Below are positions 1 to 10,114 of a DNA stretch of 10,114 bases, piece after piece. Source of the DNA: a virus (taxonomy: Duplodnaviria > Heunggongvirae > Uroviricota > Caudoviricetes). Numbering within the stretch: position 1 is the first letter of the stretch; each line of letters begins with the position of its first letter. The stretch lies in IMG/VR virus record IMGVR_UViG_2690316097_000011. One strand, written 5' to 3'. The notes under the pieces are model-generated. The model made no database searches and had not been told where the DNA came from. It saw only the letters and a list, made by a program, of their open reading frames with translations. The position numbers and the translations under genes are program-made.

Positions 1-54
1 GAGCTGCATGACAAAGTCATCGGGCATTATCTGAACATAAAACACTACCAATAA
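1..54 (+). CDS. insB: IS1 transposase InsB, C-terminal fragment (partial CDS, 5' end outside window)
   Basis: Frame 1 translates to ELHDKVIGHYLNIKHYQ followed by TAA at 52-54, the known C-terminus of IS1 InsB. Confidence 0.8.
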   Translation, partial: ELHDKVIGHYLNIKHYQ

Positions 55-69
55 GTTGGAGTCATTACC
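1..69 (+). mobile_element. IS1 right end (3' terminus with terminal inverted repeat); element continues upstream of the window
   Basis: Positions 1-69 match the canonical IS1 3' end, finishing ...AACATAAAACACTA(C)CAATAAGTTGGAGTCATTACC at 69. One C/T difference from the IS1 sequence as I recall it. Confidence 0.9.
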
Positions 70-201
70 AAACGGTTGAAATGTATGCCGCTACTTACGG
101 GTCCTGTAATCCTCTGAATAAACCAGAGGGAAAAGATGATTTCGACAAAATTTACCGCTTCTTGGAGGACCGCTATATCAAAAGCTTAGAGGACGCAGGG
201 A

Positions 202-579
202 TCAAATCCCCAGTGAAGTCACCATTGTCCTGAGAACTTGCAGAACGTCATGATCATAACTTCCATCCAAACCGCGACGGCGAATTGCTTCTCGTATTAC
301 CGGAAGCAGTTCGCTGGAAATCTCGGTGCATATTTCACCTGATAATACGCTTGGCTCAAGTGAGAATATTGGTGAACTTACGGTCTTGGTCTCGACAGTT
401 TCAGAGTCAGTGCCAACATTATAAAGCTCAACGAAAGCGGTCTTGATTTTCCGGGCCAGATCTTTTGCTGGCTCGCTTGCAATATCTTTCCCGATTTCTC
501 GCAGCACAGAATGCAATGTATGAGCTGCTGTTTTCTGTACATCAGACGGTAAATCTTTAAATTCCATCGTCAGCCTCAT
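202..579 (-). CDS. hypothetical protein, distal gene of the leftward operon
   Basis: 125 aa ORF. Its ATG at 579 overlaps the upstream stop (TGATG). An in-frame ATG at 567 with a GAGG Shine-Dalgarno 6 nt upstream is an alternative start (121 aa). No recognisable domain by eye. Confidence 0.55.
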   Translation of the reverse strand: MRLTMEFKDLPSDVQKTAAHTLHSVLREIGKDIASEPAKDLARKIKTAFVELYNVGTDSETVETKTVSSPIFSLEPSVLSGEICTEISSELLPVIREAIRRRGLDGSYDHDVLQVLRTMVTSLGI

Positions 580-731
580 CAGTCAGTGTTTCTGGCTAAC
601 CAGCAACGCGCGCCAGATTCGGTTTTAAACGTTTTGCTTTTGGTATACGTCATGGCGGTAAACGTTCCATCCTGGTTAGGGAACACGCCGCACACCAGAG
701 ATTCGTTGTTGCCAAGATCGATAGTATCCAT
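579..731 (-). CDS. small hypothetical protein (50 aa from the ATG at 731; ORF could extend to 785 giving 68 aa)
   Basis: The ATG at 731 has a GAGG Shine-Dalgarno (aaatGAGGtcagcATG on the minus strand); the ATG at 785 has none. Stop overlaps the next gene start. First gene downstream of the OL-like operators. Confidence 0.45.
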   Translation of the reverse strand: MDTIDLGNNESLVCGVFPNQDGTFTAMTYTKSKTFKTESGARCWLARNTD

Positions 732-912
732 GCTGACCTCATTTCCCCTTAACGCCGGGGTGGCGGAACAAAAAACCTGCTGCATAGTTAAAGATTGAAC
801 CCTGCCGTCATGTTCTTACGCCTCGGGCTGGCTACTTAACCCCTGACCACTGTCTGGTAACTCGAAGTATTGCCCTGCATTCTGTGGGGCGGGGTGGGTT
901 GACGCCTGAAAC

Positions 913-954
913 AATAGCATCATTATTTTTTTTGATGTAAATAGCATCGCTATT
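913..954. promoter_or_regulatory. OL-like operator pair: two 15 bp palindromes AATAGC-N3-GCTATT
   Basis: AATAGCATCATTATT at 913-927 and the perfect palindrome AATAGCATCGCTATT at 940-954, centres 27 bp apart. The same half-site recurs between the repressor and cro-like genes. Lies between the terminator of the repressor operon and the leftward genes. Confidence 0.5.
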
Positions 955-970
955 GTTTTTTGTTGGGGCA

Positions 971-994
971 AGAAAAAACCACCCTAAGGTGGTT
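971..994 (-). terminator. Rho-independent terminator of the repressor-antitoxin-toxin operon
   Basis: 7 bp perfect stem (977-983 pairs with 988-994, AACCACC/GGTGGTT) with a 4 nt loop, followed on the minus-strand transcript by UUUUCUU. Sits 17 nt after the toxin stop codon. Confidence 0.6.
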
Positions 995-1010
995 CTGTCG
1001 GCGGGAATAA

Positions 1011-1301
1011 TTAACTGTTTTTGCCTGGATACTGTCTTCGAGAATGCACAATATTTACTACTTCTATGCTTGATGCTGTTACTCGGTAAAGGATGATGTA
1101 GTTAGGATGAGTTACAATTTCACGAAGACCAAGAACTCGCTCGCTTGGAGGATACAGGTAAGGATGCTCTGTGAGCGGCAAAACGGATGTTTCAATTCGA
1201 ATTTTCATTCTGCGTGCTGCCGCGGGATTTTCTTTAGCTATGTAGGCTACGATCTGGCGCAAATCATCACGAGCAGATGGTAGCCATAAAACGGGTAACA
1301 T
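1011..1301 (-). CDS. parE: ParE/RelE-family type II toxin
   Basis: 96 aa. Translation MLPVLWLPSARDDLRQIVAYIAKENP...IILYRV has the ParE/RelE-like length and motif pattern. Start overlaps the upstream gene stop (TAATG), typical of toxin-antitoxin pairs. Confidence 0.85.
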   Translation of the reverse strand: MLPVLWLPSARDDLRQIVAYIAKENPAAARRMKIRIETSVLPLTEHPYLYPPSERVLGLREIVTHPNYIILYRVTASSIEVVNIVHSRRQYPGKNS

Positions 1302-1495
1302 TATTCACCTCTGTGAGTTGCAGCAGCAATTTGGGCAATAATTTGTTCCATTTCCGCCATTACCTCATCATGCGGAATCGCCGGGCGGGGATCCGCGAGG
1401 CTTGCTGCTACTTTGGCCCGCAGCCATTCGTTGTAACTATTTTCTTGCTCAACTGTCTCAAATTCTGAAACCATTGGGGAAAGGACTGTACTCAT
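1301..1495 (-). CDS. paaA: PaaA-like antitoxin (ParE-associated antitoxin)
   Basis: 64 aa. Motif LSPMVSEFETVEQENSYNEWLRAKVAASLADPRPAIPHDEV resembles, from memory, PaaA2 antitoxins of the prophage-borne paaR2-paaA2-parE2 systems of E. coli O157. Good Shine-Dalgarno (AGGAGA, 8 nt spacer). Immediately upstream of the toxin. Confidence 0.75.
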   Translation of the reverse strand: MSTVLSPMVSEFETVEQENSYNEWLRAKVAASLADPRPAIPHDEVMAEMEQIIAQIAAATHRGE

Positions 1496-1514
1496 TTTAC
1501 ATATCTCCTCTGAT

Positions 1515-2015
1515 TTAGGCGCGACGGCCTTTTTGTGCAGCTAACCACCGCGCAACCGTACGATCCATTGATTCTTTTTTATCTTTCATCTCCTGAAGCA
1601 TGTGTTCTTGATCTTCTTTCGGAAAAGCTCTGAACGTATGGATTAAATCTCGTTCCATCGGCTCTACGGCAAACGGTAGTTCATCCTCTGTTTGTTCTGT
1701 GTCTGCTGGTAATGCGACTATGTTATCTTGCTGTGGTTCTCGACAATACATCCTTGCAATTTGCAGCAAATCTACCATGTCTGGCCTGATTGACTCAGGG
1801 GGAACTTTCAGTAAGCCAGCAAACTTTAGAACAGCCTCAAGGTTTAGTGGGGTTTGACCATTTAGGTAGTGACTTACCGCCCCTTGTGTTGAAAACCCCA
1901 TAATTTCCGCCGCACGTTCCTGAGTCAATCCCAACTGAGATTTCTTTGCCATCCAGATTTCTTTCAGTCTTCTGGCGGCGTTGAGGTCGGTGTCTGACAA
2001 TGATTTTCTTTTCAT
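1515..2015 (-). CDS. lambda-CI-like prophage repressor (HTH, PaaR-like), without an S24 peptidase domain
   Basis: From the ATG at 2015: MKRKSLSDTDLNAARRLKEIWMAKKSQLGLTQERAAEIMGFSTQGAVSHYLNG... aligns by eye with the lambda CI N-terminal DNA-binding domain. The C-terminal 80 aa show no Ser/Lys autocleavage motifs. The ORF can extend to a GTG at 2045. Stop lies 18 nt before the antitoxin start. Confidence 0.85.
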   Translation of the reverse strand: MKRKSLSDTDLNAARRLKEIWMAKKSQLGLTQERAAEIMGFSTQGAVSHYLNGQTPLNLEAVLKFAGLLKVPPESIRPDMVDLLQIARMYCREPQQDNIVALPADTEQTEDELPFAVEPMERDLIHTFRAFPKEDQEHMLQEMKDKKESMDRTVARWLAAQKGRRA

Positions 2016-2027
2016 ACATCCAATTCT

Positions 2028-2090
2028 AATAAGATTGCTAATCACTTTGAAATAGCATCACTATTTACTTTTAAAAATAACAGTGCTATT
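2028..2090. promoter_or_regulatory. OR-like operator region in the divergent repressor/cro-like intergenic space
   Basis: AATAGCATCACTATT at 2051-2065 and AATAACAGTGCTATT at 2076-2090, plus a weaker AATAAGATTGCTAAT at 2028-2042. Centres are 23-25 bp apart, echoing lambda OR1-3. Same half-site as the left operator pair. Confidence 0.55.
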
Positions 2091-2126
2091 AATTATGCAT
2101 TGGTAACACATCACATAGGGCGGATT

Positions 2127-2390
2127 ATGAATCTTGGAGAATATTTGCATCATTTTCATATAACCCAGAGTTCATTTGCTGAGATTGTTGGCGCATCCCA
2201 AGGGATGGTCAGCCACGTTATAACGGGGCGTGCAAAACTTACAGGAGAAAAAATATTACGTTGGTGTGAAGCAACGGGATGGGTGGTGACCCCACATGAG
2301 ATTGACAGTAAAACCTACCCCAACCCAACTGACGGCTTGCCTGCTGAGTTTCAGGCTAACACACAACCATCGGCGGGGGTTGATTCATGA
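2127..2390 (+). CDS. Cro-like / YdaS-family HTH regulator
   Basis: 87 aa from the ATG at 2127 (ORF opens at a TTG at 2100). HTH-like segment QSSFAEIVGASQGMVSHVITG. Divergent from the repressor across the operator region. Stop overlaps the next start (ATGA). Confidence 0.75.
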   Translation: MNLGEYLHHFHITQSSFAEIVGASQGMVSHVITGRAKLTGEKILRWCEATGWVVTPHEIDSKTYPNPTDGLPAEFQANTQPSAGVDS

Positions 2391-2812
2391 AAATCAAGCA
2401 TGAACACATCCGCATGGCGATGAAAGCCTGGGCGCATCCGGACGGTGAAAAAGTTCCGGCAGCTGAAATAACCAGGGTTTATTTCGAACTGGGAATGACG
2501 TTTCCGGTTCTGCATAACGACAGCAAGCACAACACGCTTTATCTCAACACCCAAAAGATTTTCCGTTGGCTGGATAAAGACACCCCTGACGCTGTTGAAA
2601 AAATTCAGGCGTTGTTACCTGCGATCGAAAGGGCAATGCCACCTCCGCTGGTGGCTCGAATGCGCAGCCACAGTTCAGCTTATTTTCGGGAACTGGTGGA
2701 GACGCATGAACGACTGGTGAGAGACGCTGATGATTTTGTCGCAGTGGCAATCGCCGGTTTCAATCAGATGAACCGTGGTGGCCCGGCAGGAAATGCTGTG
2801 GCAGTACATTGA
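2387..2812 (+). CDS. CII-like / YdaT-family protein
   Basis: 141 aa beginning MKIKHEHI and ending ...AVH, as YdaT-family proteins do. Occupies the cII position between the cro-like gene and the replication genes. Confidence 0.75.
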   Translation: MKIKHEHIRMAMKAWAHPDGEKVPAAEITRVYFELGMTFPVLHNDSKHNTLYLNTQKIFRWLDKDTPDAVEKIQALLPAIERAMPPPLVARMRSHSSAYFRELVETHERLVRDADDFVAVAIAGFNQMNRGGPAGNAVAVH

Positions 2813-2883
2813 CTGACAATAGCCATATCGAATCGCTCCCGGCAACTCGTGAGTAAAAAGATTCGGTATCAGAAGAGGTGAGT

Positions 2884-3948
2884 ATGGCTAACGCCTGGCT
2901 CAGATTATGGCATGACATGCCAAATGACCCTAAGTGGCGAACAATTGCCAGGGTGTCAGGGCAGCCAATTGCAACAGTGATGGCAGTGTATATCCACCTC
3001 CTGGTGAGCGCGTCACGAAATGTCACGCGAGGTCACATTGATGTCACGACAGAAGATTTGGCAAGTGCGCTCGACGTGACAGAAGAGGTAATTGATTCAA
3101 TTTTGCAGACGATGCAGGGGCGGGTACTTGATGGTGATTTAATCACTGGATGGGAAAAACGCCAGGTGCTTAAAGAGGACAACGGCAATATTTCGCAAAC
3201 CGCAAAATCTCCTGCAGAGCGCAAGAGGGCGCAGCGAGAGAGGGAAAGAAAGCGGGAACAAAATGGCGATTGTCACGGCGCGTCACGAAATGTCACGCAC
3301 ATGTCACGACGAGTCACGACAGATACAGATAAAGATACAGATAAAGAAGATCAAAACACTATGGTCCATGGCGTAAAAAACGCCACGAACCAGGCAGGGG
3401 ATGTTCAGACCGTCAATCCTGGTCAGCCAGCAGGCTCGACACCGGAAGCCGATTCAGCGTATGCGCTGAAAGCCGATTCGGGCGCTGTGCAGCAGGTGAT
3501 GACCGCAAGGCCGGAGCAATCACTCCAACTGCAGCAGCCTGAAGCCGATTCCGCCATTCAGCGGGAAGCCGATCGGGTAGCCCCGGAAAACACCGGGCAG
3601 CCTGTGGGACGAGTGGATTATCCGGATGTGTTCGAACAGGTCTGGCGGGAATACCCGTTGCGTGCCGGGGCAAACCCGAAGAAATCCGCATTCAGTGCCT
3701 GGAAGGCCAGATTGCGCGAGGGGGTGCCACCAGAGACCATGCTGGATGGTGTGAGGCGTTACGCGAGATACCTGGCGGCGACCGGGAAAGCGGGAACGGA
3801 ATTTGTTCAGCGAGCGACGACGTTTTTTGGGCCGGACCGGAATTTTGAAAACCCCTGGTTGCTCCCGGTAAGCGGCACGAACAACCAGCGTTGTGTGAAT
3901 CATATTTCTGAACCGGATACCGAAATTCCGCCGGGATTCAGGGGGTGA
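2884..3948 (+). CDS. replication initiator / replisome organiser (lambda O-like, YdaU/DUF1376-type N-terminus)
   Basis: 354 aa from the ATG at 2884 (GAGG Shine-Dalgarno 5 nt upstream; GTG at 2878 possible). N-terminus MANAWLRLWHDMPNDPKWR, a low-complexity charged linker, and a C-terminal domain. Sits directly upstream of the DnaC-like gene and contains the iteron arrays. Confidence 0.8.
   Translation: MANAWLRLWHDMPNDPKWRTIARVSGQPIATVMAVYIHLLVSASRNVTRGHIDVTTEDLASALDVTEEVIDSILQTMQGRVLDGDLITGWEKRQVLKEDNGNISQTAKSPAERKRAQRERERKREQNGDCHGASRNVTHMSRRVTTDTDKDTDKEDQNTMVHGVKNATNQAGDVQTVNPGQPAGSTPEADSAYALKADSGAVQQVMTARPEQSLQLQQPEADSAIQREADRVAPENTGQPVGRVDYPDVFEQVWREYPLRAGANPKKSAFSAWKARLREGVPPETMLDGVRRYARYLAATGKAGTEFVQRATTFFGPDRNFENPWLLPVSGTNNQRCVNHISEPDTEIPPGFRG
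3009..3048. repeat. iteron cluster 1 (GTCACG core with 10-11 bp phasing) inside the initiator gene
   Basis: GTCACG at 3012, 3022 and 3043, GTCAC at 3032, and an inverted CGTGAC at 3075. A 20 bp block CGCGTCACGAAATGTCACGC is repeated at 3279-3298. Confidence 0.55.
3271..3346. repeat. iteron cluster 2 plus adjacent GATACAGATAAA tandem repeat; putative phage origin
   Basis: GTCACG at 3272, 3282, 3292, 3303 and 3313 (spacing 10, 10, 11, 10 bp), immediately followed by AGATACAGATAAAGATACAGATAAAG at 3321-3346. Confidence 0.6.
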
Positions 3949-3954
3949 TGTGGC

Positions 3955-4701
3955 ATGAAAAACATTGCGGCAGCCGGGGTTCTTGAACGTATTCACAGAC
4001 TTGCACCACAGGGGGCGGTTCCACCGTACCGGACGGTGGAGGAGTGGCGGGAATGGCAACTTGCTGAAGGACGAAAACGCAGCGAGGAGATTAACCGCCA
4101 GAATCGCCAGTTGCGGGTGGAAAAAATCCTGAATCGTTCGGGCATCCAGCCTCTGCACAGCAAATGCTCGTTTGCGAATTATCAGGTGCAGAACGACGGG
4201 CAAAAATACGCGCTGAGCCAGGCCAAATCCATAGCTGACGAACTGATGACCGGGTGCACGAATTTTGTGTTCAGCGGTAAAACCGGCACCGGGAAAAATC
4301 ACCTTGCAGCGGCGATGGGTAACCGGCTGATGGCGAAGGGGCGCAGCGTGATTATCGTCACCGAGTCTGATGTCATGAGCGTGTTGCATGACAGCTACGA
4401 CAACGGCAAATCCGGTGAAAAATTTTTACAGGAGCTTTGCGGGGTTGATTTGCTGGTCCTGGATGAAATAGGCATTCAGCGGGAGACGAAAAACGAGCAG
4501 GTGGTATTGCACCAGATAATTGATCGCCGGACAGCATCACTGTGCAGTGTCGGGATGTTAACAAACCTGAATCATGCCGCAATGAGCACGCTTCTTGGTG
4601 AGAGGATTATGGACCGCATGACCATGAACGGTTGTCGGTGGGTGACGTTTAACTGGGATAGCTGGCGTTCAAATGTCAGCTTTCCGGGAGTTGTGAAGTA
4701 A
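3955..4701 (+). CDS. DnaC-like helicase loader (IstB-like AAA+ ATPase, lambda P analogue)
   Basis: 248 aa. Walker A GKTGTGKNHLAAAMG and Walker B LLVLDEIG. Shine-Dalgarno AGGGGG upstream. Confidence 0.9.
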   Translation: MKNIAAAGVLERIHRLAPQGAVPPYRTVEEWREWQLAEGRKRSEEINRQNRQLRVEKILNRSGIQPLHSKCSFANYQVQNDGQKYALSQAKSIADELMTGCTNFVFSGKTGTGKNHLAAAMGNRLMAKGRSVIIVTESDVMSVLHDSYDNGKSGEKFLQELCGVDLLVLDEIGIQRETKNEQVVLHQIIDRRTASLCSVGMLTNLNHAAMSTLLGERIMDRMTMNGCRWVTFNWDSWRSNVSFPGVVK

Positions 4702-4722
4702 TTTTTGTTGGAGGATGTTTTA

Positions 4723-5448
4723 ATGGAAACTGTATTTGACGCACTGAAAGCACTGAAAAGAGCCTCTTCACATGTGGTGGCGTCCCGCCTTGGAATCAGC
4801 CGTGAAGATGCGGTCAACGAACTGTGGAAACTGAAGCGCCGTGGTGAAGCGGATAACAAGGGTTCGATGTGGTGGCTGATTCAGGCTGGTGAAAGTGAAC
4901 CAGTGTCACCGGTACCGAAAGTGACAGCGCAAATGCTGACTGAGGCGATTGAACAACATGGCCCACAAACGGCGGATGAGCTGGCACTGATGTTCGGGAT
5001 TACCTCCCGCCGGGCGAATTCATCGCTGGCCATGGCAATCAGCAAAGGGCGTCTGATTCGCGTGAATCAGGGCGGTAAATTTCGGTACTGCATACCGGGC
5101 GCTGATTTACCGGCAGAGCCGAAAGCCGCATCCATAGCGGAAACGGATGGTAAAGTCTTTCCTCAGCCAGCAGGTGTTGCGTTACCGGTACAGGAAGCTG
5201 CAACACAGGAAGAAATTAAAACAGAAACTGTGGCGGACATTGTGCAGTCGTTGCCATCGTTCACCGAAACGCAAGCGGATGACCTGGTTTTACCATCGCT
5301 GCATATGGCAAACCGCGAACTGCGTCGGGCGAAAAGTCATGTCCAGAAGTGGGAGCGTGTCTGCGCCGCGTTGCGGGAGCTGAACAAGCACCGGGATATT
5401 GTTCGACAGATTGTCGATTCCTCCGGTCGTATTGTGTCGGAAAAGTGA
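4723..5448 (+). CDS. hypothetical phage protein with two winged-helix-like segments
   Basis: 241 aa from the ATG at 4723 (GGAGG Shine-Dalgarno, 8 nt spacer; ORF opens at a TTG at 4705). No catalytic motifs recognised. Confidence 0.7.
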
Positions 5449-5463
5449 TTGCCGGGGGCGCTT

Positions 5464-5705
5464 ATGGCAAAAGTATTTACACAGGAAGAGCGGGAAAAAA
5501 TTAAGGGGCAGGTTGTTGAACTCGTACGCCAGAGTGGGCGCGAGACGTTACGACAACTGGAAGCTAAAACCGGGGCGACAAGATATTTAATAAGCGTTCT
5601 CGCCAGAGAGCTGGTTGCCAGTGGGGATGTATACAACTCTGGCTACGGGTTATTCCCGTCTGAACAGGCTCGTAAGGACTGGCAAAACGCCCGCAAAAAA
5701 CTCTC
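5464..5705 (+). pseudogene. 5' portion of a phage gene interrupted by an IS3-family remnant
   Basis: Starts MAKVFTQEEREKIKGQVVELVRQSGRETLRQLEAKTGATRY... and reads into IS-derived sequence after ...ARKKLS at about 5705. A paralogous 3' portion resumes at 6002. Confidence 0.6.
5497..5705. repeat. about 209 bp imperfect direct repeat, copy 1
   Basis: Aligns by eye with 6002-6210 at roughly 90% identity (the last 110 bp nearly identical). Both copies end ...CGCAAAAAACTCTC. Confidence 0.8.
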
Positions 5706-6001
5706 GAACGGTGGCTGAACTGGAATCTGAAATTCTGCAACTGCGTAAGGCGTTAAATGAAGCTCGCCTTGAGCGAGATATATTAAAAAAAGAACAAATG
5801 GTAGTGTCCGCTATTGCCAGTACACCTCAAAGAGATAATCGGGAAGCGCCTTCACTGATCGAAAGTTGATTTTCAGGAACCGTTCTGACAGCTTCGGCTT
5901 TGAACTCTTTAGAGTAACGTTGGGTTTTTCTGCTCATTATTAGCTCCTTCTGATGCCATTCTATTTCAGGAAGGAGTGTCCGTTAAACTCAGGCTACCTC
6001 A
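5706..6001. mobile_element. scrambled IS3-family (IS600-like) remnant made of two oppositely oriented fragments
   Basis: Minus strand 6001 to 5830: terminal repeat TGAGGTAGCCTGAGTTTAACGGACACTCC, then a Shine-Dalgarno and ATG at 5937 encoding MSRKTQRYSKEFKAEAVRTVPENQLSISEGASRLSL (OrfA N-terminus), then stop. Plus strand 5706-5793 encodes RTVAELESEILQLRKALNEARLERDILKK (OrfA leucine zipper), followed by a second terminal-repeat-like end at 5800-5829. Confidence 0.75.
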
Positions 6002-6210
6002 AAAATTAAAGGGCAGGTTGTTGAACTTGTACGTCTGAGCGGTCGCGAGACGTTGCGGCAACTGGAAGCCAAGACAGGTGCGACAAGATATCTGATGAGT
6101 GTTCTCGCCAGAGAGCTGGTTGCCAGTGGCGATGTATACAACTCTGGTTACGGGTTATTCCCGTCTGAACAGGCGCGTAAGGACTGGCAAAACGCCCGCA
6201 AAAAACTCTC
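6002..6210. repeat. about 209 bp imperfect direct repeat, copy 2
   Basis: Paralogous to 5497-5705. Begins immediately after the IS terminal repeat at 6001. Confidence 0.8.
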
Positions 6211-6391
6211 AAGGGCAAATCTGAAGAAACCATCTGTGGTTGATCCTGACCTTATCTGGTCATTACCAGACGGAGAAATACGCCGCTACGACAGACATCA
6301 GAACATAATCTGTCGCGAGTGCCGGAAGAGTGAAGTTATGCAGCGTGTACCGGCTTTCTATCAGGGTGATTTTCAGGAGGCGGTACTGTGA
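6002..6391 (+). pseudogene. 3' portion of the IS-interrupted phage gene (no 5' end or start codon)
   Basis: In-frame continuation KIKGQVVELVRLSGRETLRQLEAKTGATRY...ICRECRKSEVMQRVPAFYQGDFQEAVL. An upstream in-frame TAA at 5984-5986 lies inside IS sequence. Confidence 0.6.
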
Positions 6392-6448
6392 GTGAAATTA
6401 GCTATCAGGCTTCAATTACCGCTGGCATTCGCATCAAAGGAGAGGAGC

Positions 6449-6805
6449 ATGGAAATAAAACCAGAAGATGAGTTAAGCAATATTGTTTTATTTCCGGTAA
6501 AAGAGGATAACCCTCGTAATCAGGTTAATTTTCTTTATGAGCCATCGGAAAGACCATATTGCCATCACGCTTCTGTCCGGGTTGACGAAAAAGAGCGTCA
6601 GGTCCGCTGTAAAATTTGCGGTGCAGTTGTGGAGCCATTTGACTGGATGCTCTCTGTGGCGAAAAGAGAAACCAGACTGGCAGATGATGTAAGGCTCTTG
6701 CGCCAGGAGGAGCGGGAAAGGCGAAAAAATATAGAAAAGCTAATCCAGATTGAGCGTAATGCGAAAGCGCGGATACGCAGGGTGACAAAATATAGCCCCG
6801 AATAA
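6449..6805 (+). CDS. hypothetical small protein with a putative zinc-ribbon (C-H-H ... C-x2-C)
   Basis: 118 aa from the ATG at 6449, with a strong Shine-Dalgarno AGGAGAGGAG. Cys/His cluster YCHH...CKICG. Charged C-terminal tail. Confidence 0.6.
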   Translation: MEIKPEDELSNIVLFPVKEDNPRNQVNFLYEPSERPYCHHASVRVDEKERQVRCKICGAVVEPFDWMLSVAKRETRLADDVRLLRQEERERRKNIEKLIQIERNAKARIRRVTKYSPE

Positions 6806-7019
6806 TCAAGGTTATTTCTGGAAGTCAAGTCGTGAGTGATGAGGACTAACAAATACGGTGAACTCGATAAAGAGATTCAGGACGAACTGGAGGCCAGGAA
6901 TGATTGACAAATCACCAAGTGAGTTCAGCTACAAAGATTTATTGTCATAACGGGTTATGAGATCGACTTGGTGCGTGATATTCTTCGGGCCAGTTTGCTA
7001 TGCGCCACCATGAGATGTT

Positions 7020-8852
7020 ATGGCCCGCATGTTTGATACATTAGGATTTTACATTATGAATGTGCAACATTTTGATTTTTTTACAGATAATGAGTTTTCT
7101 AATCTGGAAAGATATCAAACTTGTAAAGCCATGGCCAAAGGTTATGCGGGCAATTACAAAACCGGGCAGTCAAGGTTGATGCATGCCCGCTCATACTGCT
7201 TCAGCATCGTAGCTGCATATTGGGATACCCTTGCAAAAAAGCAAAAAAGCAGCATTAAAATGAGGGCAGTACCGCACACTGTTTACATAGAAGACATTCC
7301 ATGTGATGCACGCGAGCTCGCTGAACGAACAGGTGAGCTTATTGCTCAATTTCCGGCGGAGGACGCTGGATATCTGATTGGGTCAATTTATACGGTAATG
7401 CTGCCATCCGCTTACCGTTCGGAATTGGGGGCTTACTATACCCCCCCACCTTTGGTAGCGCGTCTCTTGGACCTGGCTGAAAAGTCTGGTGTTGATTTTT
7501 CTCATGCATCGGTTATTGATCCTGCGTGTGGTGGCGGTGCATTTTTGGCACCAGTAGCCATTCGAATGTTAAAAAAAGACAAGGGGTCTTCCCCTGAATG
7601 GATGTTGAGGAGAATCAGTCGTCGTTTAAAGGGGATAGAAATCGATCCATTTGCGGCTTGGATGAGTTTGGTATTGCTCGAATCTGTACTAATGCCACTA
7701 TGTGTAAAGGTAAAACGTAGATTGCCTGAAGATACAATTATTGTTGCTGATGCGCTTCAGCAAGATAAATTTTCTGGTTATGATCTTGTGGTAGGGAATC
7801 CGCCTTACGGACGTGTCACTCTCGATATTAAAACGAGAGAAAAATATTCTCGTTCGTTATTTGGTCATGCAAATCTATATGGATTGTTCACCGACTTAGC
7901 TGTTCGCATGGTTAAAGAGAAAACAGGAGTTATTGCATTTCTTACGCCAACTTCTTTTCTTGGTGGGCAGTATTTCACCGCGCTGCGAACCCTTTTGACC
8001 GAAAAAACTACTCCGTATGCCCTTGATTTCGTCACTGACAGGGATGGGGTCTTTGACGATGTTCTCCAGGAAACAATGTTGACAGCATTCAAGGCGGGAG
8101 AACATAAAGTTCGGGCCCAGGTATCCTCACTTGTCCCTAAGGGGTTGAACAAAGCAAAAATTGAGAAAATAGGTAATGTTGATATAGAAAAAGGTGGAGC
8201 AACGTGGCTTTTGCCACGCGTTAAAGATGATGCCTGTTTTCTTAATGTATTAAAACAGATGTCTACGCGTTTAGCTGATCTGGGATACTCAGTCTCTACA
8301 GGTCAGTTAGTCTGGAATCGATTTAAGTCGCAGTTGCGTACGACGAAAGGAAAAAATAGCTACCCATTAGTCTGGGCGGAATCAATAACTTCAGCTGGTT
8401 TTCGTTTTAGTGCAGACAGAAAAAATCATGTTCCCTATATCGATATAACCCCACAACAGGGTTTCCTTGTGACAAAATCTGAATGTGTGCTTGTTCAGCG
8501 GACAACATCGAAGGAACAGGACAGAAGGATTTTAGCGGCAATTTTACCTCAGGGATTTATAGATGAAACTGGTGGCGTAGTAGTTGAAAACCATATTAAT
8601 ATTGTATATTCAAACGGATTGTTCTCTGCGGTTCGCCCTGATGTTATTGATATGCTACTTAATTCGCATGTTGTCGATCGGGCGTTCAGGTGTATAAGCG
8701 GAAGTGTTGCTGTTTCGGCCTATGAATTGAATTCAATCCCGTTGCCTTCTCTGGAGCAGGTGATGGAGATTCAATCGTTAATTGATGCTGGCGTCCACAG
8801 ACGGATTATTGAGAGAACTATCGCTGGTTTCTATGGAGTGATGATTGCATGA
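7020..8852 (+). CDS. gamma-class N6-adenine DNA methyltransferase (Eco57I/PstI-like family)
   Basis: 610 aa. Motif X (GAYYTPPPLV), motif I (VIDPACGGGAFL) and motif IV (VVGNPPYGR) occur in the gamma-class order, with a roughly 300 aa C-terminal region as a probable target-recognition domain. Alternative ATGs at 7029 and 7056. About 27% GC at the 5' end. Confidence 0.9.
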   Translation: MARMFDTLGFYIMNVQHFDFFTDNEFSNLERYQTCKAMAKGYAGNYKTGQSRLMHARSYCFSIVAAYWDTLAKKQKSSIKMRAVPHTVYIEDIPCDARELAERTGELIAQFPAEDAGYLIGSIYTVMLPSAYRSELGAYYTPPPLVARLLDLAEKSGVDFSHASVIDPACGGGAFLAPVAIRMLKKDKGSSPEWMLRRISRRLKGIEIDPFAAWMSLVLLESVLMPLCVKVKRRLPEDTIIVADALQQDKFSGYDLVVGNPPYGRVTLDIKTREKYSRSLFGHANLYGLFTDLAVRMVKEKTGVIAFLTPTSFLGGQYFTALRTLLTEKTTPYALDFVTDRDGVFDDVLQETMLTAFKAGEHKVRAQVSSLVPKGLNKAKIEKIGNVDIEKGGATWLLPRVKDDACFLNVLKQMSTRLADLGYSVSTGQLVWNRFKSQLRTTKGKNSYPLVWAESITSAGFRFSADRKNHVPYIDITPQQGFLVTKSECVLVQRTTSKEQDRRILAAILPQGFIDETGGVVVENHINIVYSNGLFSAVRPDVIDMLLNSHVVDRAFRCISGSVAVSAYELNSIPLPSLEQVMEIQSLIDAGVHRRIIERTIAGFYGVMIA

Positions 8853-9931
8853 ATCTGCCTGTTGTTCCCCCATTGAATGTTATCCGGGAAAGATTACAAT
8901 TAATTTTCCCTGAAGGGACTGAGAATCGTGGATATTTAATTCGGGAAATAGCTGCAAAAACAATTTTTGTCATGTTTTATGCTGGTGCGGTTGAGGGGCT
9001 GGGGCGATGGATAAGGCCCAGCCAGGTTGTAAGTATGGGAGATTCGCAGGCTGCTCTTACTGATGATGCGTCCAGAGAAAGCTGGGTAAAGATGACTTTC
9101 TCTAAACAAAAGATAAGGCCTGCTGATGCATGGTATGCGGAAAATACGCGTGAGCCAATACGTGATGAAACTATAAAAAATGGCCTAATACCTTGCAATG
9201 CAATTGTTGAGCGTAAAGGTATACCCACCACATCCTCTCGTCCTCGTTACAGTTTGAATCGCTCTTTTGCAGCACTCTTTGATGCCGGGCTTGAAGGAGA
9301 TTCGCTGCTGAGTGCAATAAGTTCCTGGCAAGAAAATCATTTGAACAAAGCCGCTCTTGCTAGGTTGCGTTTATTGAAATCAGGGGCAGTGATTGCTGCT
9401 GATGCCGTAGTCGTCACTTTCCCAAATGGAGAGAAGAGAACTTTAGCTCCGGGCCCGTCAAGTACAATAGCTAAGGCCGTCATCGAAGTTTTTGCTCCTA
9501 ATTTTCTTAAGAATCCAACTGTGCTCTGGTTGTCTGAATCCGGGAATAAAGTTGTTGCTCAGGATGATGTATTGGCAAAAGCATTGGGGCTGAATATTGA
9601 TGCCTCAAAAGCACTTCCAGATATTATTTTGATTGATTTGGGAGAGGACCGAACGGGTTCGGACATGCTTGTAGTTTTCACTGAAGTAGTTGCGACAGAT
9701 GGGCCTATAAACAGGGAACGAAAAGTTACTCTCACTCATTTGGCTATTGACGCTGGGTTCAGCGAGAAAAATCTTGCATTCCTTACGGCATTTATGGACA
9801 GAAGTGCTCTGCCTTTTAAAAAGGCAATACCAGAATTGGCGTGGGGATCTTATGCATGGTTTGCTTCTGAACCGGAGCACTTAATTGATCTTCGGGATGG
9901 TTATCCGGTAAAGATCAGCCAGAGAAAATGA
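8849..9931 (+). CDS. putative restriction endonuclease partner (possibly BsuBI/PstI family); function unverified
   Basis: 360 aa, translationally coupled to the methyltransferase (ATGA overlap at 8849-8852). Size and two-domain layout fit BsuBI/PstI-type endonucleases. A candidate nuclease core PDIILIDLGED...LVVFTEVVATDGPINRERK is only weakly PD-(D/E)xK-like. Confidence 0.55.
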   Translation: MNLPVVPPLNVIRERLQLIFPEGTENRGYLIREIAAKTIFVMFYAGAVEGLGRWIRPSQVVSMGDSQAALTDDASRESWVKMTFSKQKIRPADAWYAENTREPIRDETIKNGLIPCNAIVERKGIPTTSSRPRYSLNRSFAALFDAGLEGDSLLSAISSWQENHLNKAALARLRLLKSGAVIAADAVVVTFPNGEKRTLAPGPSSTIAKAVIEVFAPNFLKNPTVLWLSESGNKVVAQDDVLAKALGLNIDASKALPDIILIDLGEDRTGSDMLVVFTEVVATDGPINRERKVTLTHLAIDAGFSEKNLAFLTAFMDRSALPFKKAIPELAWGSYAWFASEPEHLIDLRDGYPVKISQRK

Positions 9932-10083
9932 CCAAAGTTTGATATCCGCCACGCCCTGAAGGATGGGGGTTTTACGGTGCACTGGATAAAAAATCGGTTT
10001 CATAGATTTGCCCACCGTGGTATACGCCTGCGATAAAAACTTTATTGTCATCAACGGCAAAAGCAATAATTGTTCTGTGGCGG

Positions 10084-10114
10084 GGTGATGCTGCCAACTT
10101 ACTGATTTAGTGTA
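10084..10114 (+). mobile_element. IS1 left end (terminal inverted repeat), same orientation as the IS1 at 1-69; continues beyond the window
   Basis: GGTGATGCTGCCAACTTACTGATTTAGTGTA is the canonical IS1 5' terminus. Confidence 0.9.

What the first reader, a model, noticed from the sequence alone, without database searches (positions are those of the whole stretch)
7020..9931. Low-GC methyltransferase plus 360 aa partner cassette: candidate restriction-modification or other defence module
The first gene is unmistakably a gamma-class N6-adenine methyltransferase (motifs X, I and IV in the right order). The second is coupled to it by an ATGA overlap, so the two are made together. Its size fits BsuBI/PstI-type endonucleases, but I cannot confirm a canonical nuclease motif by eye. 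If it is not a nuclease, this would be a methyltransferase-coupled system of unknown mechanism. The cassette sits at the nin-like end of the replication module, next to IS1, and differs in composition from the phage backbone.
Basis: partly seen in the sequence, partly recalled or inferred. Interest (0 to 1): 0.7.

Follow-up and report, generated by a model that had tools for sequence, protein, structure and literature searches.

The report
Prophage-borne PstI-family restriction-modification pair
This is an ordinary two-gene restriction-modification system, a DNA adenine methyltransferase plus a PstI/BsuBI-family cutting enzyme, carried as cargo in an E. coli-type lambdoid prophage; identical proteins are already in RefSeq under those family names, and only the DNA site it recognises is unknown.

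Summary
ORFs 7020-8852 (610 aa) and 8849-9931 (360 aa) exist on the + strand and overlap by ATGA.

Gene 1 is a gamma-class N6-adenine DNA methyltransferase. Motifs X, I and IV lie in that order. It matches Pfam Eco57I and N6_Mtase, a full-length PADLOC Type II MTase model at 996 bits, and M.TaqI among solved structures.

- Both Pfam domains match (E 9e-45 and 1e-30).
- SdaI is the only significant hit by sequence and by predicted fold.
- The Asp, Glu and helix Arg of the active site (D258, E279, R291) are invariant in 37 homologues.
- The family uses a non-canonical PD-(D/E)XK variant, which explains why no textbook motif was visible by eye.

The endonuclease is identical to RefSeq WP_001053102.1, and the methyltransferase differs from WP_000113425.1 by one residue. 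The same M-then-R pair occurs in Burkholderia, in a Serratia P2-like prophage, and beside transposon genes in Arenimonas.

It is only about 26% identical to the characterised Stx-phage system EcoGIII (CTGCAG), so its recognition site cannot be inferred.

Verdict: a standard Type IIP R-M cargo gene pair, already known as a kind and already annotated. Interest is low.

The parts
6810..7019 (+). Non-coding leader that belongs to the cassette and marks the left boundary of the cassette-specific DNA
   Evidence: The upstream 137 aa ORF (6392-6805) is found in 1680 of 5426 E. coli genomes, but homology stops at about window 6791-6809 in all except the 2 genomes that carry the cassette. The consensus scan found no promoter-like site on the + strand here.
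7020..8852 (+). Gamma-class N6-adenine DNA methyltransferase (M subunit). The longest ORF is 610 aa; the probable true start is the ATG at 7056 (598 aa).
   Evidence: Pfam Eco57I 1.7e-13 and N6_Mtase 2.1e-09, both above gathering. PADLOC MTase_II PDLC03338 at 996 bits, covering residues 7-608. M.TaqI is the best solved relative, 3e-08. It differs by one residue from RefSeq WP_000113425.1. Start site.
7428..7448 (+). Methyltransferase motif X (GAYYTPP, aa 137-143)
   Evidence: T141 and P142 are invariant across 5 homologues, and the motif aligns to the TPP of M.TaqI.
7518..7544 (+). Methyltransferase motif I, the AdoMet-binding loop (DPACGGGAF, aa 167-175)
   Evidence: It aligns to EPACAHGPF of M.TaqI.
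7797..7808 (+). Methyltransferase motif IV, the catalytic NPPY (aa 260-263)
   Evidence: It is invariant and aligns to the NPPY of M.TaqI.
8849..8852 (+). ATGA overlap of the M stop codon and the R start codon (translational coupling)
   Evidence: The Serratia homologue has the same 4-base overlap in the same gene order, as does the EcoGIII-type cassette.
8849..9931 (+). BsuBI/PstI-family Type II restriction endonuclease (R subunit, 360 aa)
   Evidence: Pfam. PADLOC REase_II PDLC03589 at 426 bits. SdaI 2ixs at 1.8e-16 by sequence and 7.4e-16 by fold. Identical to RefSeq WP_001053102.1.
8876..9364 (+). N-terminal DNA-recognition domain of R (BsuBI_PstI_RE_N, HTH; aa 10-172)
   Evidence: PF17728, E 1.2e-30, 106.6 bits against a cut-off of 27.
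9410..9895 (+). C-terminal catalytic domain of R (BsuBI_PstI_RE; aa 188-349), with D258 (9620-9622), E279 (9683-9685) and R291 (9719-9721)
   Evidence: PF06616, E 9.3e-45. P257, D258, E279 and R291 are invariant in 37 homologues. They align to the PD, the Glu of EAVK and R260 of SdaI (residue roles from PMC3045609), and to PD, E and R of the EcoGIII-type enzyme.
9932..9985 (+). Short 3' tail of cassette-specific DNA. It overlaps the last 14 bases (9972-9985) of the converging ParE gene.
   Evidence: ParE-gene homology to other E. coli prophages begins at about window 9986.

Best explanation
The cassette is a classical two-gene Type II (IIP-like) restriction-modification system of the BsuBI/PstI family, carried as accessory cargo (a 'moron') in the early-right (nin-like) region of a lambdoid prophage.

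The methyltransferase uses S-adenosylmethionine to place an N6-methyl group on an adenine in a specific short DNA sequence, which protects the lysogen's own DNA.

The endonuclease has two domains. An N-terminal helix-turn-helix domain reads the same sequence. A C-terminal PD-(D/E)XK-variant domain (D258, E279, R291) cuts it, with Mg2+, when it is unmethylated. Incoming phage or plasmid DNA is therefore cleaved.

M lies upstream of R and overlaps it by ATGA. The two are therefore made from one transcript with R translation coupled to M. No controller (C) gene is present.

What is shown: the domain identities, the conserved catalytic residues, the fold, the gene order, and the conservation of the pair across hosts and mobile elements. 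What is inferred: enzymatic activity, defence of the lysogen, a possible prophage-stabilising (addiction) effect, and the recognition site. Every family member I know to be characterised recognises CTGCAG or CCTGCAGG, so the site may be CTGCAG-related, but at about 26% identity this cannot be called.
For: - Pfam: PF06616 (9.3e-45) and PF17728 (1.2e-30) on R; PF07669 and PF02384 on M.
- PADLOC: Type II REase and MTase models match nearly full-length, at 426 and 996 bits.
- PDB: SdaI is the only sequence hit and the only significant fold hit, with probability 1.00 over all 360 alignment columns (on a model with pLDDT 77.8).
- Catalytic residues: the Asp, Glu and helix Arg are invariant in 37 homologues of 62-89% identity. 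They align with SdaI and with the biochemically active EcoGIII-type enzyme (PMC3045609; PMC3893438).
- Methyltransferase motifs X, I and IV align with M.TaqI.
- The R homologue search returned 3,724 proteins with E <= 1e-5, and both Pfam domains are present in all 120 listed.
- The roughly 600 aa M and roughly 360 aa R pair keeps the same order in Burkholderia, Serratia and Arenimonas.
- RefSeq gives the identical R the same family name.
- Both reading frames are intact.
Against: No activity data exist for this enzyme pair. The recognition site is unknown. No convincing promoter of its own was found upstream, so expression in the lysogen is not shown. The Lys of the SdaI EXXK motif is Ala here (A282), so the catalytic assignment rests on alignment and on the reported dominance of the helix Arg in SdaI. 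The cassette is rare among complete E. coli genomes (2 of 5,426).
Confidence: 0.9

Rival explanations
1. The pair still exists, but R is inactive or not expressed in the lysogen. The methyltransferase then acts in effect as a solitary, prophage-encoded epigenetic modifier that changes the host methylome.
For: The ArgO145 copy of the related EcoGIII-type R gene is frameshifted, so decay of R does occur in prophages. The Stx-phage methyltransferase reshapes host methylomes (PMC3893438). No promoter was found here. The neighbourhood is decaying, with IS1 and IS600 remnants.
Against: R is full-length and identical in protein sequence to the copy in a second genome. All catalytic residues that are invariant in the subfamily are kept. 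There are no frameshifts or internal stops.
Confidence: 0.06
2. A methyltransferase-coupled defence system of another type (BREX-like, MADS-like or Type IIG-like), in which the 360 aa protein is not a simple site-specific endonuclease.
For: M gives weak partial hits to the BREX PglX and MADS MAD2 methyltransferase models. Fused M-R proteins of about 840 aa exist and match both genes (PDLC03359, phrog_1639).
Against: The BREX and MADS scores are 21-37 bits against cut-offs of 400-900, and they cover only the shared methyltransferase core. No other BREX or MADS genes are in the window. The module has exactly two genes in every host examined. R is a full two-domain BsuBI/PstI enzyme.
Confidence: 0.02
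3. The main selected role is as an addiction (post-segregational killing) module that stabilises the prophage or the cassette itself, rather than defence against phage.
For: Established knowledge: Type II R-M pairs can behave as selfish addiction modules. The cassette sits among other stability genes, a ParE toxin downstream and a PaaA2/ParE pair at 1011-1495. It also travels on several kinds of mobile element.
Against: This does not exclude the best explanation, since the same biochemistry gives both effects. Nothing in the sequence separates the two roles.
Confidence: 0.3

Closest known systems
EcoGIII / M.EcoGIII (PstI isoschizomer, CTGCAG) of Stx2a prophages in E. coli O104:H4, O145:H28 and O103
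   Same: Both are prophage-borne in E. coli and share the same Pfam families. Gene order is the same, with M upstream and R overlapping its last 4 bases. Both methyltransferases have NPPY; the EcoGIII methyltransferase is an N6-adenine enzyme (PMC3893438). The catalytic Asp, Glu and Arg align, and neither has a Lys at the SdaI K251 position.
   Different: R is only 26% identical and M 25%, with no nucleotide similarity. R is 360 aa here against 317 aa. M is about 600 aa against 489 aa, with an extra conserved N-terminal region of about 120 aa. The location in the prophage also differs: next to cI in the Stx phages, after the replication genes here. The specificity here is unknown.
SdaI (CCTGCAGG), PDB 2ixs, the only solved structure in the family
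   Same: Both have the two-domain architecture (an N-terminal wHTH recognition domain, as I recall it from the SdaI structure paper, which I could not read, and a C-terminal nuclease domain). SdaI is the only significant sequence and fold hit. The PD, E and helix Arg (R260 in SdaI, R291 here) align.
   Different: Identity is about 21%. SdaI Lys251 of the EXXK motif (PMC3045609) is Ala282 here. The global TM-score is low (0.39-0.44), which I read as a difference in relative domain placement and a model of only moderate confidence.
PstI and BsuBI R-M systems (CTGCAG), the founders of Pfam PF06616 and PF17728
   Same: Membership of both Pfam domains, and pairing with an N6-adenine methyltransferase.
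   Different: PADLOC separates the subfamilies. This R scores 426 bits on PDLC03589 but only 97 bits on the next REase model, PDLC03420. Which REBASE enzymes seed each model was not checked.
M.TaqI, the archetypal gamma-class N6-adenine methyltransferase
   Same: Motif order X, I, IV, and the NPPY catalytic loop.
   Different: The match is distant (36 bits) and limited to the catalytic core. The target-recognition region is unrelated.

Membership tests
BsuBI/PstI family Type II restriction endonuclease | C-terminal catalytic domain PF06616 above the gathering score | tested here: met
   152.2 bits against a cut-off of 27, E 9.3e-45, covering profile positions 2-152 of 154.
BsuBI/PstI family Type II restriction endonuclease | N-terminal HTH recognition domain PF17728 above the gathering score | tested here: met
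   106.6 bits against a cut-off of 27, E 1.2e-30, covering profile positions 2-136 of 140.
BsuBI/PstI family Type II restriction endonuclease | Active-site Asp (of PD), Glu, and the basic residue in the following helix (SdaI R260) | tested here: met
   D258, E279 and R291 are invariant in 37 homologues and align to SdaI and to the EcoGIII-type enzyme. The SdaI K251 equivalent is Ala here and Thr in the EcoGIII type, so it does not define the family. Residue roles are from PMC3045609.
BsuBI/PstI family Type II restriction endonuclease | Fold like SdaI | tested here: met
   Foldseek against the PDB: 2ixs_A at E 7.4e-16, probability 1.00; the next hit has E 0.36. The model has pLDDT 77.8.
BsuBI/PstI family Type II restriction endonuclease | Site-specific cleavage that is blocked by the cognate methylation | not testable with these tools
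   This needs biochemistry or a plating assay.
Gamma-class N6-adenine DNA methyltransferase (Eco57I / N6_Mtase Pfam families) | Motif order X, then I, then IV, with (D/N)PPY | tested here: met
   GAYYTPP at aa 137, DPACGGGAF at aa 167, NPPY at aa 260. They align with M.TaqI.
Gamma-class N6-adenine DNA methyltransferase (Eco57I / N6_Mtase Pfam families) | Pfam match above the gathering score | tested here: met
   PF07669 at 51.4 bits against 25.3; PF02384 at 37.6 bits against 20.4.
Type II R-M operon | Adjacent M and R genes that stay linked across hosts | tested here: met
   The same order and near-abutting genes are seen in Burkholderia (L004), Serratia (L006), Arenimonas (L008, L009) and two E. 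coli genomes.
CTGCAG-specific isoschizomer group (PstI / BsuBI / EcoGIII) | High similarity to an enzyme of proven CTGCAG specificity, or a matching methylome motif | tested here: inconclusive
   Identity to the EcoGIII-type proteins is 26% for R and 25% for M, too low to transfer specificity. No literature or methylome data were found.
BREX (PglX) or MADS methyltransferase-based defence | Methyltransferase reaches the family's curated score, and partner genes are present | tested here: not met
   21-37 bits against cut-offs of 400-900. No BREX or MADS partner genes are in the window.
C-protein-controlled R-M system | A small HTH controller gene next to M or R | tested here: not met
   No ORF of 50 aa or more lies between 6810 and 7019 on either strand, or on the + strand after 9931. 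Shorter ORFs were not screened with a tool.

The most novel reading that the evidence does not exclude
This well-populated but, as far as I could find, uncharacterised branch of the PstI/BsuBI family may recognise a sequence other than CTGCAG or CCTGCAGG. The branch has a 360 aa R with Ala in place of the SdaI Lys251, and an M of about 600 aa with an extra conserved N-terminal region of about 120 aa. If so, it would be a new Type IIP specificity and a comparison point for how the wHTH recognition domain is retargeted.
Probability: 0.4. Interest if true: 0.3.

Novelty: already known. Interest (0 to 1): 0.12.

Why it matters
It matters only modestly. The result turns an 'R-M or unknown defence' question into a plain R-M call. 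It also adds one more case of a lambdoid prophage carrying a restriction system in its nin-like cargo slot, which would protect the lysogen from other phages and plasmids and add a new m6A motif to the host methylome. The same module also travels in a P2-like prophage and beside transposon genes, which illustrates how such cassettes move between mobile elements. The one open point with practical value is the recognition sequence of this subfamily.

Tried and rejected
- Nucleotide search against 50,697 phage records found no match, so the cassette is not EcoGIII. EcoGIII was my first guess from memory. Protein comparison gave only 25-27% identity.
- Looking for a canonical PD-(D/E)XK lysine: the SdaI K251 position is Ala here. 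This is not evidence of inactivity, because the EcoGIII-type enzyme also lacks the Lys and the helix Arg is conserved (PMC3045609).
- Recognition specificity: searches for the RefSeq accessions and for methylome papers found nothing usable, one query had invalid syntax, a Burkholderia methylome preprint did not cover this system, and the SdaI structure paper is not held. The window has two CTGCAG sites in 10.1 kb, where I would expect about 2.5 by chance, so this says nothing.
- Promoter and terminator scan of 6700-10114: promoter-like sites were fewer than in shuffled sequence and none lay upstream of M. The terminator-like hits lie inside genes.
- BREX, MADS and Type IIG readings were rejected on scores and on missing partner genes.
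- NCBIfam has no model that matches R. That is a gap in the library, not evidence against the call.
Full report
**1. The observation**

The junction reads ...GCATGAATC..., so the start ATG of the second gene overlaps the TGA stop of the first by four bases. A GGAG lies about 10 nt upstream of that ATG (read).

The cassette is 43.6% GC. The rest of the window is 49.0%, the replication module 53.6% and the left arm 46.0%. The compositional contrast is therefore real but modest.

The last 31 bases of the window (10084-10114) are identical to the sequence just upstream of an IS1B transposase gene in plasmid R100, and they occur in thousands of enterobacterial records. The 'next to IS1' statement is correct.

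**2. The first gene**

The protein matches Pfam Eco57I (PF07669, 1.7e-13) and N6_Mtase (PF02384, 2.1e-09), both above gathering. It matches a PADLOC Type II methyltransferase model over nearly its whole length at 996 bits.

Motif X (GAYYTPP, aa 137), motif I (DPACGGGAF, aa 167) and motif IV (NPPY, aa 260) lie in gamma-class order. They align to the corresponding motifs of M.TaqI, the best solved relative.

Hits to the BREX PglX and MADS models are partial, at 21-37 bits against cut-offs of 400-900. They reflect only the shared catalytic core.

Homologues from Serratia, Burkholderia and Arenimonas are 592-598 aa. The closest one (68% identity) begins at the residue that aligns to Met13, and an AGGA precedes that ATG (read). 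The true start is therefore probably 7056. An N-terminal region of about 120 aa is conserved in this subfamily and absent from the 489 aa EcoGIII-type methyltransferase.

**3. The second gene**

The protein carries both domains that define the BsuBI/PstI endonucleases: PF17728 (HTH recognition domain, aa 10-172, 1.2e-30) and PF06616 (catalytic domain, aa 188-349, 9.3e-45). It also matches a PADLOC Type II REase model at 426 bits.

The only solved relative by sequence is SdaI (2ixs, 1.8e-16). An AlphaFold2 model built on 37 homologues has a mean pLDDT of 77.8. Its only significant PDB match is SdaI (E 7.4e-16, probability 1.00, all 360 alignment columns), and the next hit has E 0.36. The low TM-score (0.39-0.44) most likely reflects a different relative placement of the two domains.

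**4. The active site**

SdaI has PD...EXXK with Lys251, plus Arg260 in the following helix, and the Arg is reported to be the more important of the two (PMC3045609, citing the SdaI structure paper).

In the alignments, P257-D258, E279 and R291 of this protein match the PD, the Glu and R260 of SdaI. They also match the equivalent residues of the EcoGIII-type enzyme. All four are invariant in 37 subfamily members of 62-89% identity.

The Lys251 position is Ala282 here and Thr in the EcoGIII-type enzyme. [quoted passage not shown] The missing Lys is therefore not a sign of decay.

**5. Relatives and context**

The cassette is 99.3-99.9% identical at the nucleotide level in only 2 of 5,426 complete E. 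coli genomes. RefSeq calls the genes there 'HsdM family class I SAM-dependent methyltransferase' and 'BsuBI/PstI family type II restriction endonuclease'. R is identical in protein sequence, and M differs by T339A.

In strain FDAARGOS_943 the pair sits in a lambdoid prophage next to potC. It follows the replisome organiser, the DnaC-like loader, DUF977 and a small hypothetical gene, and it precedes ParDE, DUF968, RusA and Q. This is the nin-like cargo region.

The window shows the same layout. The gene upstream (6392-6805) occurs in 1,680 E. coli genomes, but homology ends at about 6809. Homology in the ParE gene resumes at about 9986. The cassette-specific unit is therefore about 3.2 kb, from 6810 to 9985.

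Beyond E. coli the family is large. The homologue search returned 3,724 proteins with E <= 1e-5, and all 120 listed carry both Pfam domains. The M-then-R pair keeps its order in three other settings:
- a Burkholderia chromosome;
- a Serratia P2-like prophage, between the replication gene and the portal and terminase genes;
- beside TniB/TniQ transposon genes in Arenimonas.

Fused M-R proteins of about 840 aa also exist (PDLC03359, phrog_1639).

**6. Mechanism**

The best-supported reading is a standard Type IIP-like R-M system.
- M methylates an adenine (N6) in a short target sequence.
- R reads the same target with its N-terminal HTH domain.
- R cleaves unmethylated copies with its C-terminal nuclease domain.
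- M-first order and ATGA coupling tie R synthesis to M synthesis.
- No controller protein is present.

In a lysogen this would restrict incoming phage and plasmid DNA. As with other Type II pairs, it could also penalise loss of the element. Activity, expression and the target site are inferred, not shown. No promoter-like site was found in the 210 bp leader, so transcription may come from the prophage's early-right operon or from a promoter that departs from consensus.

**7. Comparison with what is known**

The nearest characterised E. coli example is EcoGIII/M.EcoGIII, the CTGCAG system of Stx2a prophages (PMC3893438). It has the same architecture and the same M-R overlap. However, R is only 26% identical and M 25%, there is no DNA similarity, and it sits in a different prophage slot.

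Every member of the family I know to be characterised (PstI, BsuBI, EcoGIII, SdaI) recognises CTGCAG or CCTGCAGG. A related site is therefore plausible, but it cannot be assigned at this level of identity. I found no paper or methylome that settles it, and REBASE is not available here.

**8. Verdict**

The 'unknown mechanism' alternative is not needed.

The object is a member of well-described families. It matches the R-M profile models of PADLOC at high scores, and its proteins are already in RefSeq under the correct family names. I rate it 'already known' and of low interest. The only open point is the recognition specificity of this subfamily.

Noticed in passing
window 5449-6391 (repeats 5496-5705 and 6001-6210; insert about 5783-6000): The DUF977 gene is split and partly duplicated. 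Two 210-nt copies, 91% identical, flank a remnant of an IS600-like (IS3 family) element that matches thousands of places in E. coli genomes. ORF 5449-5718 holds DUF977 positions 1-81, and ORF 6053-6391 holds positions 30-134.
   Followed up: partly
window 9972-10114: IS1 starts at 10084 and interrupts a converging RelE/ParE-family toxin gene. Only its 3' 112 nt (9972-10083, minus strand) lies in the window. In E. coli FDAARGOS_943 the toxin and its ParD antitoxin are intact at this position.
   Followed up: partly
window 1011-1495 (minus strand): A second, intact toxin-antitoxin pair, ParE toxin (96 aa) and PaaA2-type antitoxin (64 aa), lies directly beside the repressor-like HTH gene (1515-2045).
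   Followed up: no
window 7020-7058: The methyltransferase start is ambiguous. RefSeq uses the longest ORF (7020), but the closest homologue starts at the equivalent of Met13 (ATG at 7056), which is preceded by AGGA. That start gives 598 aa, in line with homologues of 592-598 aa.
   Followed up: yes
window 1-10114 compared with L001: The prophage is a mosaic. Against the FDAARGOS_943 prophage, the block 6113-10083 is 99% identical and the replication module 2376-4704 is 91% identical. The immunity region (about 900-2375) and 4705-6112 (DUF1627 and the duplicated DUF977) have no counterpart there.
   Followed up: partly
L006 3208-6083; L008 3235-6089; L004 3205-6095: Homologous M-R pairs ride on different mobile elements: a P2-like prophage in Serratia marcescens (between the gpA-like replication gene and the portal and terminase genes), and next to TniB/TniQ transposon genes in Arenimonas. 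In Burkholderia a 78 aa ORF ends 4 bases before M and could be a controller protein. I did not examine it.
   Followed up: no
window 7020-9931 (both proteins): Both genes match single fused proteins of about 840 aa (PADLOC PDLC03359, PHROG phrog_1639). In some phages and bacteria this methyltransferase type and the PstI-like nuclease therefore occur as one polypeptide.
   Followed up: no
window 8849-9931: A 344 aa version of R that is 100% identical over the aligned region (P0002) represents a cluster of 345 member sequences from assemblies of public sequencing runs (Logan). The cassette may therefore be commoner in sequenced isolates than its 2 of 5,426 count in complete genomes suggests.
   Followed up: no
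window 6392-6805: The 137 aa ORF just upstream of the cassette has a weak, sub-threshold zinc-ribbon match and belongs to PHROG 1621 (function unknown). It is present in about 1,680 complete E. coli genomes and marks the conserved left edge of a variable cargo slot, which holds ead/Ea22-like genes in some other prophages.
   Followed up: partly
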